IMG/VR virus record: IMGVR_UViG_3300022927_001696
Coordinates: 1 to 64,000 of that record
Source of the DNA: a virus
DNA length: 64,000 nt
Strand: one strand, 5' to 3'
The position numbers and the translations under genes are program-made. Below the pieces are notes generated by a model. It saw only the letters and a program-made list of their open reading frames with translations. It ran no database searches and was not told where the DNA came from. Positions 5,751 through 17,880 of the stretch are shown one piece after another. The first letter of the stretch is position 1, and each line of letters begins with the position of its first letter.

Positions 5751-6569
5751 TTACGCCTTTTTAGGTTCAACGTTTATGTTATCTGTTGGTGTGTTATCTG
5801 CTGGTTTGTTGTCGCCCATACTACCTTCGCCGCCATCTTTATTTTCGATGCCTGCTTTTTGACCGTCAACTACAAATGTTTTCTTAGGTGCATTTGTAAG
5901 TGAAGATTCTTTGTTGTCTGGGTTTTCGTTTTTAGCAACTTCAGGTGCTTTATCTTGAAGTTTAGTTGCTTCTTCAACAACTTCATCTTCTTCAGCAACT
6001 TCTTCATCAAGATCATATTCAACTGACTCTAAATCGAGTTCGTCTTCCATGTCCATTTCTGCGTCCATTTCTGCTTCTTCACCGTCTTCGACTTCTTCGT
6101 CGTCTGCTAACAATTTTTCGAATTCTGCTTTAAGTTCGTCAAGCTCGTCTTCTAGGTCGTCAACTTTGTCCTCTAGGTCTCCGTTTTCTTCCTCTTCTTC
6201 GCTTTCTTCTTCTTCGCCGACTTCGTCTGCTTCGATTTCTTCTTCATCAGCAAGAATATCATCTTCAAAATCGTTTGATTGATCAATTACTTCATCAACT
6301 TCGAACTCTTCTTCGACTGCTTCTTCTGATTCTTCAACAGCCTCTTCTTCAGATTCTTCAGCCTCTTCAACTGCTTCTTCTTCTGATTCTTCTGCTTCTT
6401 CAATTTCTTCAACTGCTTCTTCTTCAGAAACGTCTTCATCTAGAACTTTTTCATATTCTGCTCTTGCTTTTGCAACAACATACTCATGAAGCATTTCTTC
6501 TGCTTTTTCGTTTTCTTCAGCAAGGAGAAGTTCAAGAATTTCTTCTAATTTACTTCTTGATTCTGACAT
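5751..6569 (-). CDS. Highly acidic prohead core / internal protein
   Basis: Extremely Glu/Asp-rich with EEAVEE repeats; sits between portal and protease like the T4 core genes 67/68; SD GGAG upstream. Confidence 0.6.
   Translation of the reverse strand: MSESRSKLEEILELLLAEENEKAEEMLHEYVVAKARAEYEKVLDEDVSEEEAVEEIEEAEESEEEAVEEAEESEEEAVEESEEAVEEEFEVDEVIDQSNDFEDDILADEEEIEADEVGEEEESEEEEENGDLEDKVDDLEDELDELKAEFEKLLADDEEVEDGEEAEMDAEMDMEDELDLESVEYDLDEEVAEEDEVVEEATKLQDKAPEVAKNENPDNKESSLTNAPKKTFVVDGQKAGIENKDGGEGSMGDNKPADNTPTDNINVEPKKA
6309..6428 (-). repeat. Tandem (S)EE(E)AVEE coding repeats, four copies
   Basis: SEEEAVEEIEEAEESEEEAVEEAEESEEEAVEESEEAVEE. Confidence 0.8.
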
Positions 6570-6610: not shown

Positions 6611-6645
6611 GCTCGGAAATATACCGAGCCATCTAATTACTTATA
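6611..6645 (-). promoter_or_regulatory. Late-promoter variant TATAAGTA (6638-6645) followed by a 5'-UTR hairpin GCTCGG/CCGAGC (6611-6629)
   Basis: Seen directly; lies upstream of the acidic protein-gp21-gp22-gp23 operon. Confidence 0.5.
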
Positions 6646-6930: not shown

Positions 6931-8652
6931 TTAAAGTTCTGGTGTATTCCCACCAGGTATTTGGTTTGGATTTGTATCAGTAGTATTTATGCCTAGATCG
7001 TCTGTATTATCCATTGCTTGATCAGGTAAATCACCAAAGTCTAAATCTGCTCCAGGTGTTACCGATGCATCAGGCTCTGGTCTTATACCAAGATTTCTGA
7101 GATCTGCTTGTTTTTCACCATCAACAAATTTTTCATAACCGTTTTCTTTACGCCATAATTCTTCGTTGTCTTTAAATTCGTCTTCTGTAAGACCTAGATA
7201 TTTCTTCAATTTAAATTGATTACTTAAGAACGGTGTAGCCGCCAATGTATTAAACAAGTTAGCTCTTTCCTGATCAATTTGTAGGTCTCTATATGAACTA
7301 AAGTTCATTGGTTTATTAAATGTAATAAAGAAATCTGAATTATCTAATTCTATACCTCTGTGTTTGAGGAACATTTTGAATTCTGTATCTAAATCTTCTT
7401 GTATTTGTTTTTGTAATCTTTCACAGTATCTAGCAAATCTGTATTCCTGAATGTAAGCAATACCCACTTTACCGTCGTTATAAACACTACTTCCATCTTC
7501 TGGTCCAGTAGGCAAGTAACTGCTTGGTACTCTTAAACCTCTTAAAAGTTTATTATTAAAATATCTTAAATCGTCTATTTGTCCTAAGTTTTCACCGCCT
7601 GGTAGTGTGTCTACTTTACTACCTCTACCATCTGCCGTTTGTGCAAAGAAGTAATCTTCTAACATACTCATTGGATTGTAGGCCGCATCTGCAACACTAC
7701 TGCCATCTGACTTTTTATTAGGAACACGTTTTTGCTGTACTTCGTATTTTACTTGTTCCAAATACTGTCTTGCTTTATGTGGTGGCATGTTACCCACATC
7801 AATAAAGAACACACGTCTTTCAGGTGCTCTGTGAACCCTGTATATAATAATACTGTCTTCTAATAATTCTTTTTGTTTGAATACTTTAAATATTGGTTCT
7901 AAAATACTTACACCAAAAGGCCATGCATGGTCCATTGCTTCAGTTAAACTTATATGAACAACATGTTTTGCATCTACAGGAACACCCTGGTCTACACCGT
8001 CTATTGCACCAGTTAAATAGTTACCAGTTTGCGGTCCTTGAAGTCCACCGCCCATCATTCCGGCACCGGAGCCATATGGCCTTGCATGTAATCCGGACAC
8101 ATCTGTAGCAACCATATCTGCAAAGTTAGGTTCTAAATTTTTAATGAAATATGTTTCTATCTTTTTGCCTTCACTTTCATTAACAATAACTTTCTCTACA
8201 TTAGCAGGGTCTATCCAAAATAATTTATAAGTCTCTGGGTCTCTAATAAAGAATTGATCACCGTATTTTATAGTGCTACGGAACACTCTAAATGCTCTTT
8301 TATGCATCTCATTGAGCCTGCACCATTGAGTTAGGGTCTTAGTAATTATCTTTTGTTCTGTGTCAGAAGGGTCTCTATTATAGTTTATTTCAAAAGGAAG
8401 TCCACTATATTCATCTTCTTGAGTACCAAATTCTGCTATTGTGTCCAATGCTGAATTGATTTCTAAGTCATTGTCCATTTGATCATATTGCATATATCTC
8501 ATCAAACGGTTAGGAGAACCGGCATAAACTTCCGGCAACCAACTAGCATATCTGCTTGTTGCCGCTCCTGGGCCTCCTTCAGGGGTATTACCTGTTACAT
8601 TTAATGGTAAACCACTGTTATCGACACTAGAAAAGTATTTTCTCCAACTCAT
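6931..8652 (-). CDS. gp20: Portal vertex protein (gp20-like)
   Basis: LEDSIIIYRVHRAPERRVFFIDVGNMP, MSMLEDYF, TLPGGENLG, LRVPSSYL motifs. Confidence 0.95.
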   Translation of the reverse strand: MSWRKYFSSVDNSGLPLNVTGNTPEGGPGAATSRYASWLPEVYAGSPNRLMRYMQYDQMDNDLEINSALDTIAEFGTQEDEYSGLPFEINYNRDPSDTEQKIITKTLTQWCRLNEMHKRAFRVFRSTIKYGDQFFIRDPETYKLFWIDPANVEKVIVNESEGKKIETYFIKNLEPNFADMVATDVSGLHARPYGSGAGMMGGGLQGPQTGNYLTGAIDGVDQGVPVDAKHVVHISLTEAMDHAWPFGVSILEPIFKVFKQKELLEDSIIIYRVHRAPERRVFFIDVGNMPPHKARQYLEQVKYEVQQKRVPNKKSDGSSVADAAYNPMSMLEDYFFAQTADGRGSKVDTLPGGENLGQIDDLRYFNNKLLRGLRVPSSYLPTGPEDGSSVYNDGKVGIAYIQEYRFARYCERLQKQIQEDLDTEFKMFLKHRGIELDNSDFFITFNKPMNFSSYRDLQIDQERANLFNTLAATPFLSNQFKLKKYLGLTEDEFKDNEELWRKENGYEKFVDGEKQADLRNLGIRPEPDASVTPGADLDFGDLPDQAMDNTDDLGINTTDTNPNQIPGGNTPEL

Positions 8653-8671
8653 AAATATAATCCTTTTAGTT

Positions 8672-8700
8672 ATATTACACTATTTATCGTATTGTGTCAA
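8672..8700 (-). promoter_or_regulatory. Nested promoters for the portal gene: sigma70-like TTGACA-N17-TAATAT enclosing late GATAAATA (8681-8688)
   Basis: Seen directly on the minus strand. Confidence 0.5.
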
Positions 8701-11469: not shown

Positions 11470-12345
11470 ATGGCAGATAATACCAATCCACTAGCAGGAC
11501 ATTTTAGGTCGCCAAAGTTATATACACAATTACCCAGTAAAGGTAAATTTTATACCCCGGATGTAGTAGACATGTCGGAAACTGGAGAATTACCAGTATA
11601 TCCCATGACTGCTAAGGATGAACTAATGCTAAAAAATCCAGATGCATTATTAAACGGTGAAGCAATTGCCACAGTAATTAGCAGTTGTATACCAACAATC
11701 AAATTACCAAGAAAACTTTTAAGTAATGACATAGATGCATTACTAATTGCTATTCAGGGTGCTACTTATGGTGATGATATGGAGGTATCCAGCACTTGTG
11801 ATAAATGTGAAGAAGTTGTCACTGAAAACGTCAGTGTAGAGGGTGCTTTATCCACTATGAGTACATTAGATGATGCATATCAATTTAATACTGATACAGG
11901 TCTACTAGTAGAAATTAGACCTTTTAGTTATGAAACTACAGTAAAGGCCGGAGTAGCAAACTTTAGAAGTGAAAGAAGTTTACAATCAATTGCTACCATA
12001 GATGATGAAGTGGAAAGAATTCGTGCATTTAATAGTAATTTTATAGAACTTTCTCAATTAAATTTTGATATAATGGTGGATAGTGTGGCTTCTATCACAA
12101 TTCCTGCCGTTGATAAAGACAGCGATGACATAATCGTTAATGACTCAAATAATATTCGCGAATTTTTAGAAAACTGTGAAAGTGCTGTTGGAAAACAGAT
12201 AGAAGAATTTATCTCAGAGATTTCTAATATAGGTGTAAACAAAGAAGTACTCATGAGATGTACTGCATGTGGTACTGAAGAAGAACCATATGAGTTCCAA
12301 GCACAGGTAAACTTTAATCCCGTAAATTTTTTCACGGCTTCCTAG
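11470..12345 (+). CDS. gp26: Baseplate hub / tail assembly protein (gp26-like)
   Basis: LPSKGKFY, PMTAKDEL, DIDALLIAIQGATYG and two CxxC pairs (CDKC, CTAC); ends NPVNFFTAS. Confidence 0.75.
   Translation: MADNTNPLAGHFRSPKLYTQLPSKGKFYTPDVVDMSETGELPVYPMTAKDELMLKNPDALLNGEAIATVISSCIPTIKLPRKLLSNDIDALLIAIQGATYGDDMEVSSTCDKCEEVVTENVSVEGALSTMSTLDDAYQFNTDTGLLVEIRPFSYETTVKAGVANFRSERSLQSIATIDDEVERIRAFNSNFIELSQLNFDIMVDSVASITIPAVDKDSDDIIVNDSNNIREFLENCESAVGKQIEEFISEISNIGVNKEVLMRCTACGTEEEPYEFQAQVNFNPVNFFTAS
12324..12333 (+). other. Candidate -1 ribosomal frameshift site A-AAT-TTT-TTC
   Basis: Two overlapping X-XXY-YYZ heptamers in the correct phase; the -1 frame is open from 12318 to 12566. Confidence 0.6.
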
Positions 12346-12368
12346 CTCAATCAGAGCCTGAGGAGGTA

Positions 12369-12566
12369 GTGGCATACCTTAGGAAGCTCAACGAAGAAAC
12401 AGACGCCATAGAGAAAAACATAACTGAACTAGTTGTGTATAGTAATGGATCTGTCACCTGGTCTGAAGCATGGGAAATGTCATCAAAACAAAGAGCTTCA
12501 TTAGTTAAAACTATAAATGATTATAATCAAGCAAAAGCAGGCAAATCTCCAACAGAACAACTTTAA
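12369..12566 (+). CDS. gp51-like assembly protein, possibly made as a frameshift extension of gp26
   Basis: GSVTWSEAWEMS motif; GTG start with AGGAGG only 2 nt upstream; lies in the -1 frame relative to gp26. Confidence 0.6.
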   Translation: MAYLRKLNEETDAIEKNITELVVYSNGSVTWSEAWEMSSKQRASLVKTINDYNQAKAGKSPTEQL

Positions 12567-12582
12567 TCTTTAAACTCTATAT

Positions 12583-12600
12583 AGGTCCTACGGACCTTTT
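12583..12600 (+). terminator. Hairpin AGGTCC-TAC-GGACCT-TTT, possible terminator or boundary between convergent transcripts
   Basis: Perfect 6-bp stem followed by a short T run. Confidence 0.5.
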
Positions 12601-13064
12601 CAAACTACATTCAATCACTTCGTAAACTTCGTTCTTTCATTTGTTTGAAAGAATTTTTTAAGTAGACCGTTATCATGTATGTTGAAGCCATAACTCACCT
12701 ATACAGGTGAGAATGAAGTCATCATGTGATGCCGTCGCCATCTTAACCTCGGGTGCTACTAGGAACCAGTGAGCCTTCTGTCCCCATACACTACCGTCAC
12801 GAATCTCACGGAAATCATATAACCTAGGTAAGTTTAGTTATATAACTTGTAAGTTGCTTTTTCTCAGAGCTTACATCCTTTTATACTGTCTGTCGTGTGT
12901 TTGTACTTTGCCGCTATACATCTCCAGTATCTCGCACCGGGTGTTGCCATTGCCGGATTGTCAAGGAGCCAGATTTAATTTGCCTCTGTTGGGGCCGGTG
13001 TATAGTCCTATGTTTGTGCCTTTGTATGCCTTAGTGAATTGTGTTTTAACTTTCGTTTTAACAC
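12583..13064 (-). ncRNA. Putative ~480-nt structured non-coding RNA of unknown family
   Basis: The longest non-coding gap in the window. About 46% GC by hand count over 12721-13020, versus about 25% in the 17761-17880 spacer. At least seven stems, a GAAA tetraloop on the minus strand, and TATAAGTA at 13068-13075. Confidence 0.55.
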
Positions 13065-13070
13065 ACCTAC

Positions 13071-13499
13071 TTATATGTCTTTGAGCTCTTCCTTGAGGAT
13101 TTTTGAACCGCCCACTCTGACATTGATAATTCCATTATAATAATCGTCTGTGAGTAATACTTTTCTGTCAAATTGTTCCTTTGCTTCTAAATAACTTGCA
13201 ATGCCTCGACTGGAACAAAAGTACAAAATTTCTCGTGTAAATTTATCTTCTCCCAATGATTCAACGTCTTCTTTGAGATGATCGTTACTACCCCAATAAG
13301 TTTGCCAATCGCTTTCTTTGGTGCCACGACGTTTGTTCTTTTTACCTTTTAAGGGAGGTTTGGTTGTTTTGAATTTGGCTAATTTTTTACCAACATACAT
13401 TTTTCCATTTGTGTTATTCGTTATTAGATATACAAATGCCTCACAATCGTCTGGTAATGTTGTTACTGTTTTGTTTTTGTAAAGCCAATTAGCCATCAA
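13071..13499 (-). CDS. GIY-YIG family endonuclease
   Basis: FVYLITNNTNGKMYVGK (GIY...YIG), YWGS, LEAKEQ (Glu), YYNG (Asn); Lys/Arg-rich insert KPPLKGKKNKRRG. Confidence 0.8.
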   Translation of the reverse strand: MMANWLYKNKTVTTLPDDCEAFVYLITNNTNGKMYVGKKLAKFKTTKPPLKGKKNKRRGTKESDWQTYWGSNDHLKEDVESLGEDKFTREILYFCSSRGIASYLEAKEQFDRKVLLTDDYYNGIINVRVGGSKILKEELKDI

Positions 13500-17758: not shown

Positions 17759-17797
17759 TAACTCTCCTCAAAATTATCGTTCATTTATATTGTTAGT

Positions 17798-17825
17798 ATT
17801 ATACACAGTCTTTTGTGTATGTCAA
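17798..17825 (-). promoter_or_regulatory. Consensus sigma70 promoter TTGACA-N16-TATAAT for gp55, overlapped by the inverted repeat ATACACA-N6-TGTGTAT
   Basis: Perfect hexamers; inverted-repeat arms at 17801-17807 and 17814-17820. Confidence 0.75.
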
Positions 17826-17872
17826 TTAGTATTTAGTAAAACTGGCAGATTAAAACTAGTTTTAATGAATAC

Positions 17873-17880
17873 GATAAATA
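17873..17880 (+). promoter_or_regulatory. Putative late promoter GATAAATA for the baseplate operon
   Basis: Motif followed by SD GGAGA and the ATG at 17899. Confidence 0.6.

What the first reader, a model, noticed from the sequence alone, without database searches (positions are those of the whole stretch)
12583..13075. Candidate large structured ncRNA (~480 nt) with its own late-type promoter
Seen: this is the longest non-coding gap in a tightly packed genome, yet it is GC-rich (137/300, about 46%, over 12721-13020 versus about 25% in the 17761-17880 spacer). Stems found by eye: a GAAA-tetraloop hairpin with tandem A-A mismatches (13041-13064, minus strand); a long-range pair CTATACA/TGTATAG (12914-20 / 12999-13005); CACCGG/CCGGTG (12935-40 / 12995-13000); a possible crossing pair CTCC/GGAG (12922-25 / 12965-68); TGTAAG/CTTACA around an A-rich loop (12848-75); ATATAAC/GTTATAT (12817-43); CTCACCT/AGGTGAG (12694-711); TTCTTTCA/TGAAAGAA (12632-53); AGGTCC/GGACCT (12583-97). 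TATAAGTA at 13068-75 on the minus strand would place +1 near 13062. Inference: a multi-domain phage RNA. I cannot assign it to tRNA, tmRNA, a group I/II intron or a small ribozyme.
Basis: partly seen in the sequence, partly recalled or inferred. Interest (0 to 1): 0.85.

Follow-up and report, generated by a model that had tools for sequence, protein, structure and literature searches.

The report
Twin-box structured RNA gene of phages
The longest gene-free gap of this uncultured marine giant phage holds a real gene for a large, doubly knotted RNA of about 480 bases; its middle part is distantly related to a small catalogued RNA motif of unknown function, it carries two short sequence boxes that always change together, and what it does is still unknown.

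Summary
The gap 12567-13070 is the longest in the window and is GC-rich. It has no conserved reading frame.

It encodes a structured RNA on the minus strand. In 28 related phage sequences, 70 base pairs in 13 helices are 97.7% paired. 41 of them show compensatory double changes, and two helices are pseudoknots.

More than 119 IMG/VR viral contigs carry the RNA's invariant 18-nt loop. Proteobacterial mobile islands carry homologues too.

No Rfam model hits the window. A model I built from the phage sequences hits a Polynucleobacter copy at the place where Rfam's Methylobacterium-1 motif (RF01712, 103 nt, function unknown) scores above its threshold. The phage RNA is therefore an enlarged, distant relative of that motif.

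Two 8-10-nt boxes flank hairpin P10. They are identical within each element but differ between elements, and I found no complement in cis.

The promoter-like TATAAGTA is plausible: the same motif lies upstream of the portal gene and of the gene next to it.

The GIY-YIG gene is a frequent but dispensable neighbour.

My best guess at function is a trans-acting scaffold that holds two copies of a nucleic-acid partner. This is unproven.

This scan has met the same family before on other phage DNA.

The parts
13068..13075 (-). TATAAGTA box, candidate late-type promoter of the RNA; it overlaps the stop codon of the GIY-YIG gene
   Evidence: The motif TATAA[CG]TA also lies upstream of the portal gene (8667-8674) and of the neighbouring gene 5751-6569 (6638-6645). 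(T/G)ATAA(C/G)TA is kept at -180 to -220 from the P5 loop in nearly all group-A relatives, including L118 where the GIY-YIG gene is not adjacent. Bacterial copies carry TATAAATA upstream. No transcript start has been mapped.
13041..13064 (-). 5' leader hairpin with a GAAA loop, specific to this lineage
   Evidence: Present in the sequence. The leader between the nuclease stop codon and the core differs among relatives.
13015..13032 (-). Two AAGGCAYA leader repeats (2-4 copies in relatives) just before the core
   Evidence: The motif is not enriched elsewhere in the window: 9 matches against 5.2 expected.
12914..13005 (-). 5' domain. P1 (12999-13005 with 12914-12920) encloses P2 (12985-88/12970-73), a CUCC/GGAG helix (12965-68/12922-25) and P3 (12953-56/12937-40).
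   Evidence: Compensatory changes in P1, P2 and P3. The CUCC/GGAG helix is counted.
12883..12907 (-). P4 hairpin
   Evidence: 100% paired in group A. All 5 pairs show double changes across the other groups.
12848..12875 (-). P5 hairpin with the invariant loop CUCUGAGAAAAAGCAA (12854-12869)
   Evidence: The stem covaries at 4 of 6 pairs. The 18-nt pattern covering the loop is exact in at least 119 viral contigs and in bacterial copies.
12813..12847 (-). P6 hairpin; its loop forms pseudoknot PK1
   Evidence: 11 of 12 pairs show double changes.
12742..12745 (-). 3' strand of pseudoknot PK1, pairing with 12829-12832 in the P6 loop
   Evidence: 4 pairs, 100% paired, 3 with double changes.
12750..12809 (-). 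P8 (12788-96/12750-56), P9 (12780-85/12761-66) and pseudoknot PK2 (12805-09 with 12769-73 in the P9 loop)
   Evidence: PK2 has 5 pairs, 100% paired, 4 with double changes. P8 and P9 are 100% paired with double changes.
12718..12727 (-). Twin box r1 (ACAUGAUGAC)
12688..12717 (-). Extended hairpin P10 between the two boxes
   Evidence: Compensatory variants are visible: CUCACC/GGUGAG against CUCCUU/AAGGAG against UCACCC/GGGUGA. Other groups have GNRA-type loops.
12669..12678 (-). Twin box r2 (ACAUGAUAAC)
12583..12660 (-). 3' tail: A-run, tail helix 12643-47/12601-05, and end hairpin 12583-12597. On the plus strand the end hairpin is followed by a run of U and probably also ends the convergent hub-gene transcript.
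   Evidence: The tail helix has 5 pairs, all with double changes. The end hairpin covaries: GGUCC, GACCC, GGUAC, GACAC. It travels with the cassette where the cassette is inverted in L012. The terminator scan found none.
13071..13499 (-). Neighbouring gene: 142-aa SegE-type GIY-YIG nuclease, nuclease domain only. It is a frequent but not obligatory neighbour of the RNA.
   Evidence: Pfam PF19835 at E = 3.5e-33. A homologue lies within 2.5 kb in 102 of 127 loci. It is absent or replaced by other genes in others.

Best explanation
Window 13062-12583 on the minus strand is a gene for a stable, roughly 480-nt, doubly pseudoknotted non-coding RNA. It is probably transcribed from its own late-type promoter (TATAAGTA). 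It is an enlarged phage form of the orphan Methylobacterium-1 RNA family.

Shown: the fold, the strand, the homology to phage and bacterial copies, and the twin boxes.

Inferred, step 1: it is an independent gene. The GIY-YIG gene beside it is a selfish homing-type nuclease gene that sits next to, and moves with, a highly conserved RNA gene. It is not the RNA's partner.

Inferred, step 2 (weakest): the RNA acts in trans as a scaffold. The invariant P5 loop docks on a conserved cellular or phage component. The two identical single-stranded boxes either side of hairpin P10 each base-pair with the same 8-10-nt sequence, so one RNA holds two copies of a nucleic-acid partner. Change in that partner would drive both boxes to change together.
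For: Fold and strand: 70 pairs at 97.7% paired, 41 pairs with double changes, 0 of 500 shuffles as high, slid controls 32-43% paired, and many fixed G-U pairs. P4-P6 are confirmed across the other groups and the bacterial copies.

Family: the loop pattern occurs in at least 119 viral contigs. Model R1, built from phage sequences, hits every other phage group and the bacterial copies at E from 1e-20 to 5e-3. RF01712 scores 49.9 bits (threshold 40) on L173 at 1906-2014, where R1 also hits.

Promoter.

Independence from the nuclease: 13 phage loci with enough upstream DNA have no GIY-YIG gene. Their upstream genes include a PDDEXK nuclease, a YqaJ exonuclease and a methyltransferase; in other loci a methyltransferase or another gene lies between the GIY-YIG gene and the RNA. 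Bacterial copies lie beside integrases or a resolvase, with no GIY-YIG domain among the neighbours I tested. A close GIY-YIG homologue in phage Melnitz has no such RNA beside it.

Boxes: 75 of 90 unique elements share a word of 7 nt or more between the two box zones, against 13% for control zones. There are about 30 different shared words; a few are other repeats. There are at least 5 parallel changes between elements whose scaffolds are 83-90% identical. Bacterial copies have boxes at the same positions.

No cis partner: the best complementary run within an element's own RNA equals that found with other lineages' boxes, 6.15 against 6.20 upstream and 5.79 against 5.81 in the tail.
Against: No partner for the boxes was found. 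The box word is not enriched in the window (65 matches against 60 expected), and the host is unknown.

Most boxes share a semi-conserved A-U-R-A core. Part of their likeness could therefore reflect a structural or protein-binding motif rather than base pairing.

In about 88% of phage loci with room upstream, the RNA directly follows a GIY-YIG gene on the same strand, and the two diverge together. That is more constant than expected for a purely selfish neighbour.

Transcript ends, abundance and stability have not been measured. Metatranscriptome contigs cover parts of the RNA and its neighbouring genes at similar low depth.
Confidence: 0.5

Rival explanations
1. Anti-defence or defence decoy. 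The RNA is a sponge whose two identical boxes mimic the target of a sequence-specific host factor, such as a toxin endoribonuclease, a small RNA or a guide-bearing defence complex. The boxes diversify in an arms race.
For: The boxes vary quickly on a conserved scaffold. In the two bacterial loci I tested for this, the RNA lies near defence-like genes: a NUDIX protein matching candidate system PDC-S07 at E = 4.5e-44, and HNH proteins resembling type IV restriction enzymes, ZorE, ThsC and PtuB. Phages and bacterial mobile elements share the RNA.
Against: No defence system is consistently adjacent, and the neighbours differ from locus to locus. The invariant loop and the elaborate fold go beyond what a simple decoy needs. 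No target is known. This idea overlaps with the best explanation: it is the same mechanism with a named purpose.
Confidence: 0.15
2. Ribonucleoprotein with the adjacent nuclease. The RNA guides or scaffolds the GIY-YIG enzyme, which has no DNA-binding domain, in the manner of OMEGA systems, with the boxes as guide segments.
For: The GIY-YIG gene ends 110-220 nt upstream of the loop on the same strand in most loci. The pair moves as one cassette, inverted in L012. The protein is only 142 aa with a very basic insert. Other nuclease genes (PDDEXK, HNH) lie near some copies.
Against: The RNA occurs without any GIY-YIG gene in 13 phage loci and in the bacterial copies examined. The same GIY-YIG family occurs without the RNA. 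Neighbouring enzymes belong to unrelated folds, including integrases and a resolvase. Two identical guides are not expected of a guide RNA. I saw no box match in the flanking DNA.
Confidence: 0.1
3. Self-processing RNA. A ribozyme, or a substrate of a host RNase, is cut at the two equivalent sites (after CUC in r1 and UCU in r2) and releases the P10 hairpin. The two boxes match because one active site or guide reads both.
For: The two boxes have fixed, slightly different prefixes (CUC and UCU) and flank a conserved hairpin. The loop is invariant and the core is knotted, as in catalytic RNAs.
Against: There is no match to any ribozyme family in Rfam. No internal guide complementary to the boxes exists. 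One metatranscriptome contig runs unbroken through both boxes (12608-12758).
Confidence: 0.07
4. Cis-acting part of the nuclease cassette. The structured region is a 3' untranslated element that stabilises or regulates the GIY-YIG message.
For: There is no recognisable terminator between the gene and the RNA, and the two are nearly always adjacent.
Against: A conserved promoter-like box precedes the RNA even where the nuclease gene is not adjacent (L118). The RNA exists with other upstream genes and in bacteria. A knotted fold of about 450 nt is far more than a 3' stabiliser needs.
Confidence: 0.08
5. The element works as DNA or as an R-loop primer. It would be a replication origin or a recombination site, with the twin boxes as direct repeats around a palindrome.
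For: There are direct repeats around an inverted repeat. Bacterial copies lie beside integrases and a resolvase. In this window it lies next to the gp46 recombination nuclease gene.
Against: Helices keep their pairing, not their sequence, and use G-U pairs and GNRA loops, which are RNA features. Blastn found no copy in the plasmid collection. The promoter-like box resembles those before late genes here, whereas T4 origin transcripts come from early or middle promoters (my own knowledge of T4). The position in the genome varies among relatives.
Confidence: 0.05

Closest known systems
Methylobacterium-1 RNA motif (Rfam RF01712; Weinberg et al. 2010, PMC2864571)
   Same: It covers the same central module: the P4 hairpin, the P5 hairpin with the GCUCUGAGAAAAAGCAAC loop, the P6 hairpin and the following CCGU segment. 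A Polynucleobacter copy scores 49.9 bits against a threshold of 40, at the place hit by my phage-derived model. The 2010 paper lists the motif as a likely RNA, not cis-regulatory, from Methylobacterium and marine samples, and I found no function stated there.
   Different: The Rfam model has 103 positions, while the RNA here is about 450-480 nt. It adds a 5' domain, two pseudoknots, P8-P10, the twin boxes and a structured tail. The Rfam model does not detect the window copy (E up to 10) or 15 other phage copies (E up to 1). In the paper library I found no paper that extends the motif.
GOLLD and ROOL (large ornate RNAs often carried by phages and prophages)
   Same: These are also large, elaborate, phage-borne non-coding RNAs of unknown function that were discovered through covariation.
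   Different: There is no sequence or structure match. The hosts and phage types differ. Those RNAs have no twin boxes, as far as I know.
HEARO / IscB omega-RNA and TnpB reRNA (OMEGA systems)
   Same: In both cases a structured RNA is encoded directly beside a small nuclease gene on a mobile cassette.
   Different: Here the RNA occurs without the nuclease and the nuclease without the RNA. There is no terminal guide that matches a target. The two variable segments are identical to each other. There is no Rfam HEARO match.
Free-standing GIY-YIG homing endonuclease genes of T4 (seg genes; segB lies in the tRNA gene cluster)
   Same: The neighbouring ORF is a SegE-type GIY-YIG domain. It sits beside a highly conserved RNA gene and moves with it. 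That fits a homing-type gene using a conserved RNA gene region as its landing site. The T4 comparison rests on my own knowledge.
   Different: The protein has only 142 aa and no separate DNA-binding domain. Its presence beside the RNA is far more constant than for typical seg genes. No cleavage site is known.

Membership tests
Rfam RF01712 Methylobacterium-1 RNA | The Rfam covariance model scores at or above its gathering threshold (40 bits) | tested here: not met
   Window: no hit at the gathering threshold or at E up to 10. 15 other phage loci: none at E up to 1. The bacterial homologue L173 passes at 49.9 bits; L170 reaches 35.3 bits.
Rfam RF01712 Methylobacterium-1 RNA | Shared architecture: hairpin, then a hairpin with the conserved loop, then another hairpin, then the CCGU segment | tested here: met
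   P4, P5 and P6 are present and covary in the window's group and across groups including bacterial copies. The RF01712 alignment on L173 shows the same order of elements.
Rfam RF01712 Methylobacterium-1 RNA | Homology link between the window RNA and sequences that do pass the Rfam threshold | tested here: met
   Model R1, built only from phage group-A sequences including the window, hits L173 at 1914-2035 with 44.2 bits and E = 5e-9. This overlaps the RF01712 hit at 1906-2014. All loci were chosen for sharing the 18-nt loop, which accounts for part of the score.
Rfam RF01718 Polynucleobacter-1 RNA (named by earlier notes of this scan) | Match to the Rfam covariance model | tested here: not met
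   No RF01718 hit in the window (E up to 10), in 15 phage loci or in 7 bacterial loci including Polynucleobacter (E up to 1).
GOLLD, ROOL, HEARO, raiA, OLE and other large Rfam RNAs | Match to the Rfam covariance model | tested here: not met
   the only two matches were chance snoRNA models at E = 2.3 and 9.8.
tRNA / tmRNA | ARAGORN or Rfam detection of a tRNA-like domain | tested here: not met
   ARAGORN finds no gene in the window, and there is no Rfam tmRNA or tRNA hit.
Group I / group II intron | Interrupts a host gene whose exons flank it, with a ribozyme core detectable | tested here: not met
   The element is intergenic. The cassette is inverted relative to gp46 in L012 and lies elsewhere in L005, L007 and L008. 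There is no Rfam intron hit.
Nuclease guide RNA of the OMEGA or CRISPR type | Obligatory pairing of the RNA with one nuclease family | tested here: not met
   13 phage loci with room upstream lack the GIY-YIG gene, and other genes take its place. Bacterial copies lie beside integrases or a resolvase. The phage Melnitz GIY-YIG gene lacks the RNA.
Nuclease guide RNA of the OMEGA or CRISPR type | A variable guide segment complementary to a target | tested here: inconclusive
   Variable boxes exist, but no complementary target was found in cis and the word is not enriched in the window. Host genomes are unknown.
SegE-type GIY-YIG homing endonuclease (the neighbouring gene) | GIY-YIG catalytic domain | tested here: met
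   PF19835 at E = 3.5e-33, plus homing-endonuclease PHROG families. VYL...YVG motifs are visible in the translation.
SegE-type GIY-YIG homing endonuclease (the neighbouring gene) | Site-specific DNA cleavage and homing into genomes that lack the gene | not testable with these tools
   There is only indirect evidence. The cassette lies at different places and in different orientations in relatives.
T4-type late promoter | TATAAATA consensus upstream of late genes | tested here: inconclusive
   The box is TATAAGTA, not the consensus. TATAAATA itself is rare in this window (2 matches against 14 expected). But TATAA[CG]TA lies upstream of the portal gene and of the neighbouring gene 5751-6569, and the box is conserved in relatives.

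The most novel reading that the evidence does not exclude
The RNA is a synapsis or targeting RNA for mobile DNA. Its two identical boxes would pair with the same core sequence on two DNA molecules or two sites, for example donor and recipient. That would bring them together for whichever nuclease or recombinase the element encodes next to the RNA: GIY-YIG, PDDEXK or HNH nucleases in phages, and integrases or resolvases in bacterial islands. This would be a programmable, enzyme-agnostic relative of bridge or guide RNAs.
Probability: 0.07. Interest if true: 0.95.

Novelty: new variant of a known kind. Interest (0 to 1): 0.62.

Why it matters
Large, elaborately folded RNAs are rare, and each one whose role became known (ribosomal RNAs, RNase P, tmRNA, the omega-RNA that began as HEARO) revealed basic biology or a useful tool.

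This one is widespread in uncultured marine giant phages and is shared with mobile islands of proteobacteria. It shows that a 103-nt motif of unknown function, catalogued in 2010, is only the middle of a much larger knotted RNA.

Its twin boxes, two short segments that always change in step, are an unusual signature that none of the mechanisms I considered accounts for. They give a clear experimental handle: change one box, then both.

If the boxes prove to be programmable recognition segments, the RNA could matter for phage-host conflict or for nucleic-acid targeting.

Tried and rejected
Protein-coding or pseudogene reading. The minus frame that follows the nuclease gene has 7 stops, a mix of TGA and TAA. 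It has no Pfam or PHROG hit and no tblastn hit in phages. No ORF is shared by relatives. A 22-codon ORF that runs through both boxes in the window is kept neither in length nor in frame in relatives, and the box spacing is not constant modulo 3. Rejected.

Degenerate C-terminal half of the nuclease. The GIY-YIG ORF is about 142 aa in all relatives. Rejected.

Rfam: nothing for the window.

Cultured phages and plasmids: no blastn match for three family members in the phage collection or for a bacterial copy in the plasmid collection.

Single-sequence folding energy: not significant.

Cis partner for the boxes: none above the cross-lineage control. Mutual information within group B is confounded by shared ancestry.

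Box word in the window: not enriched.

Boxes against the nuclease gene's start or stop region: no relation.

Genome-collection scan: 40 exact hits, close to my estimate of about 35 from chance. About ten show the family's features: a complementary stem around the loop and, in most, a significant R1 hit.

RNA libraries. Four salt-marsh metatranscriptome runs hold contigs identical to 12608-12758, 12784-13044, 12809-12993 and 12773-12997. Neighbouring genes are covered at similar low depth, these are contigs, and DNA carry-over is possible. This shows presence in RNA libraries only, not ends, strand or level.

Sigma-70 promoter and intrinsic terminator scans: nothing above shuffles on the minus strand.
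Full report
**What is there.** The window comes from a 91.6-kb IMG/VR viral contig rated 26% complete. Its gp46-like gene is closest to those of jumbo phages such as PA5oct and Atu_ph07.

The finding lies in the gap 12567-13070. On one side are the plus-strand baseplate-hub gene (11470-12345, PF12322) and a 65-codon ORF. On the other is a minus-strand 142-aa SegE-type GIY-YIG ORF (13071-13499, PF19835, E = 3.5e-33), followed by the gp46/SbcC-like gene.

G+C is 137/300 over 12721-13020 and 30/120 over 17761-17880, against 33.9% for the window. This 504-nt gap is the longest between called genes.

**Not coding.** Every frame has stops. The minus frame continuing from the nuclease gene has seven, a mix of TGA and TAA. 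It matches nothing in Pfam, PHROGs or phage genomes. Relatives share no ORF across the region, and their GIY-YIG ORF is always about 142 aa, so the gap is not a decayed C-terminal half. Indels in the conserved core are mostly not multiples of three: 295 against 40.

**Conserved as nucleic acid.** Loci fetched with the hub protein showed the gap conserved at the DNA level. Identity is 99.8% in L026, 92% in L012, 84% in L002 and L004, and 70-73% in L005, L007 and L008, although the hub protein of L005-L012 is only 48-51% identical. In L012 the GIY-YIG gene and the gap are inverted together relative to their neighbours.

By blastn these contigs fall into about six groups that share little beyond that hairpin.

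**The fold.** I aligned 28 group-A sequences (A1). RNAalifold gave 56 pairs, 27 of them with compensatory changes. A scan for covarying diagonals added two pseudoknots and a tail helix.

The curated structure has 70 pairs in 13 helices. It is 97.7% paired, 41 pairs show changes on both sides, no shuffle of 500 reaches the observed values, and sliding the 3' partners by 1-3 columns drops pairing to 32-43%.

The helices in window coordinates:
- P1: 12999-13005 with 12914-20
- P2: 12985-88 with 12970-73
- a CUCC/GGAG helix: 12965-68 with 12922-25
- P3: 12953-56 with 12937-40
- P4: 12903-07 with 12883-86
- P5: 12870-75 with 12848-53, around the invariant loop
- P6: 12836-47 with 12813-24
- PK1: the P6 loop 12829-32 with 12742-45
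- PK2: 12805-09 with the P9 loop 12769-73
- P8 and P9
- P10: 12688-12717
- a tail helix: 12643-47 with 12601-05
- the end hairpin: 12583-97

Several positions are fixed G-U pairs, for example 28 of 28, 26 of 28 and 24 of 28 sequences. On the plus strand these would be mismatches, so the RNA is read from the minus strand.

By energy alone the window sequence is unremarkable (z = -0.96). The case rests on comparison between sequences.

CACCGG/CCGGTG does not. The tail hairpin is undecided, and the GAAA hairpin lies in a leader specific to this lineage.

**Relation to known families.** Rfam gives nothing for the window at the gathering threshold or at E up to 10. It gives nothing at E up to 1 for 15 other phage copies. 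ARAGORN finds no tRNA or tmRNA.

A scan of one genome per prokaryote species gave 40 exact hits to the loop pattern. That is about what I estimate from chance, roughly 35. About ten of them have a complementary stem around the loop, and several show the further family features in the printed sequences, including twin boxes at the same offsets. They come from Polynucleobacter, an Oxalobacteraceae isolate (three copies), Burkholderiaceae, Dechloromonas, Sphingomonadaceae, Erythrobacteraceae and Alsobacter.

On these bacterial copies Rfam's Methylobacterium-1 model (RF01712, 103 positions) scores 49.9 bits in L173 (threshold 40) and 35.3 bits in L170. It covers P4-P5-P6 and the next few bases.

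A covariance model built only from phage group A (R1, 177 positions, P4 to P9) hits all other phage groups and those bacterial copies, including L173 at the same coordinates. It hits only one of the roughly thirty hits that lack the family's features, and that weakly (L174, E = 0.0025). The model-fitted alignment again shows abundant double changes in P4-P6.

The window RNA is therefore an enlarged, distant relative of RF01712. Its authors listed that motif as a likely RNA, not cis-regulatory, from Methylobacterium and marine samples (PMC2864571). I found no later paper on it. Polynucleobacter-1 (RF01718), named in earlier notes of this scan, never matched.

**The twin boxes.** Either side of P10 lie two short segments that are the same within an element and differ between elements. 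In the window they are ACAUGAUGAC (12727-12718) and ACAUGAUAAC (12678-12669).

In other groups the pattern is CUC plus 8-9 nt for the first box and UCU plus the same 8-9 nt for the second. Examples are GAAUAAUG, AGAUAAUG, AGAUGAUG, GGAUGAUG, AGAUAAAG, ACAUAAAG, AAAUGAAGC, GUAAGAUA and ACUACAAG. Bacterial copies have CUUCAAGAU or CUUUGAAAU.

75 of 90 unique elements share a word of 7 nt or more between the two zones, against 13% for control zones of the same RNAs. Elements whose scaffolds are 83-90% identical show parallel changes in both boxes at least five separate times.

The two boxes are not complementary to each other. No complementary segment exists elsewhere in the RNA above a cross-lineage control. 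The word is not enriched in the window.

Most boxes contain A-U-R-A, so part of the likeness may be a structural motif. The variable positions still change in step.

**Promoter and ends.** TATAAGTA (13075-13068, minus strand) overlaps the nuclease stop codon. The T4 consensus TATAAATA is rare in this window: 2 matches against 14 expected. However, TATAA[CG]TA also sits in the short intergenic regions upstream of the portal gene and of the gene between portal and prohead protease.

A (T/G)ATAA(C/G)TA box is kept at the same distance in nearly all group-A relatives. This includes L118, where another gene separates the nuclease gene from the RNA. Bacterial copies carry TATAAATA upstream.

This is inference; no start has been mapped.

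The 3' end is probably at or near the hairpin 12583-97. On the plus strand that hairpin is followed by a run of U, so it likely also ends the convergent hub transcript.

Metatranscriptome contigs from four salt-marsh runs match parts of the RNA perfectly. They also match neighbouring genes, at similar low depth, so they show only presence in RNA libraries.

**The neighbours.** A GIY-YIG homologue (50-89% identical) lies within 2.5 kb in 102 of 127 loci. Usually it is on the same strand and ends 110-220 nt before the loop.

Thirteen loci with room upstream have none. Their upstream genes include a PDDEXK nuclease, a YqaJ exonuclease and a methyltransferase. In other loci a methyltransferase or another gene lies between the GIY-YIG gene and the RNA.

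The closest cultured GIY-YIG homologue (75% identical, methylophage Melnitz) has no such RNA.

In bacteria the RNA lies beside tyrosine integrases or a serine recombinase, and near HNH, NUDIX and HIT genes that resemble defence proteins. One Polynucleobacter contig carries two copies 44 kb apart in opposite orientation.

I read the RNA as an independent gene carried by mobile DNA. I read the GIY-YIG gene as a homing-type passenger that has settled next to a very conserved sequence. The constancy of the pairing in phages keeps a functional link possible.

**Function.** Nothing tested here shows what the RNA does. My best-supported guess has two parts: an invariant loop that docks on something conserved, and two exposed identical boxes that each pair with the same short sequence in trans. 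I give the whole statement about even odds only because its structural and genealogical parts are solid; the pairing step alone deserves perhaps one in three. The rivals are a decoy, a nuclease partner, a self-processing RNA, a cis element and a DNA element. They are listed with their tests.

**Earlier notes.** Earlier notes of this scan describe the same family on other phage DNA as the 'twin-box' RNA. I reached the boxes independently before reading those notes. I tested two of their leads: the link to RF01712 holds, and the link to RF01718 does not.

Noticed in passing
window 6638-6645 and 8667-8674 (minus strand): TATAAGTA and TATAACTA lie in the short intergenic regions upstream of the gene 5751-6569 and of the portal gene 6931-8652. 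The T4 consensus TATAAATA is depleted in the window (2 matches against 14 expected). This phage may use TATAA[CG]TA as its late promoter.
   Followed up: partly
window 12318-12566: The baseplate-hub gene ends at 12345 and a 65-codon ORF (12369-12566) with no family match follows closely. Another first-reader note proposes a frameshift that joins them. I did not test this.
   Followed up: no
L012:6070-7000: In this relative the GIY-YIG gene plus the RNA lie inverted relative to the hub and gp46 genes, and an extra 274-codon ORF sits between the RNA and gp46. The RNA is 92% identical to the window's although the hub protein is only 48% identical. This points to recent exchange of the cassette.
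   Followed up: partly
G001 contig C27, 65914-66035 (+) and 110329-110473 (-); loci L195, L196: A Polynucleobacter genome carries two copies of the RNA 44 kb apart in opposite orientation. One follows a tyrosine integrase. The other lies near a tRNA-Met gene, a resolvase, a DnaJ-domain gene and two HNH genes (one fused to HIT, one to DUF3427). They may be two islands or the two ends of one element.
   Followed up: partly
L155:3955-5155: In an Erythrobacteraceae isolate a NUDIX gene and an HNH gene lie divergent from the RNA. The NUDIX protein matches candidate defence family PDC-S07 at E = 4.5e-44. The HNH protein resembles type IV restriction enzymes.
   Followed up: no
window 12849-12881: One metatranscriptome run holds a 39-nt contig at depth 72.8 that covers the invariant P5 loop with 3 mismatches. 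This is far deeper than any contig of the window's own sequence. It may come from many related phages, which would make the family abundant in that RNA sample.
   Followed up: no
window 13071-13499 (minus strand): The 142-aa GIY-YIG protein has a very basic insert (KFKTTKPPLKGKKNKRRGTK) between the GIY and YIG halves and no separate DNA-binding domain. PHROG 447, its best family, is labelled 'NAD synthetase', which looks like a mislabel.
   Followed up: no
3' tails of group-B loci, e.g. L036 and L073 (about 260-330 nt after the loop): In other groups the tail carries a conserved module (a stem around UGAGCGANAGCGAAA) followed by a terminator-like hairpin. The window's group has a different, repeat-like tail (ACGAAGU repeated).
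   Followed up: no
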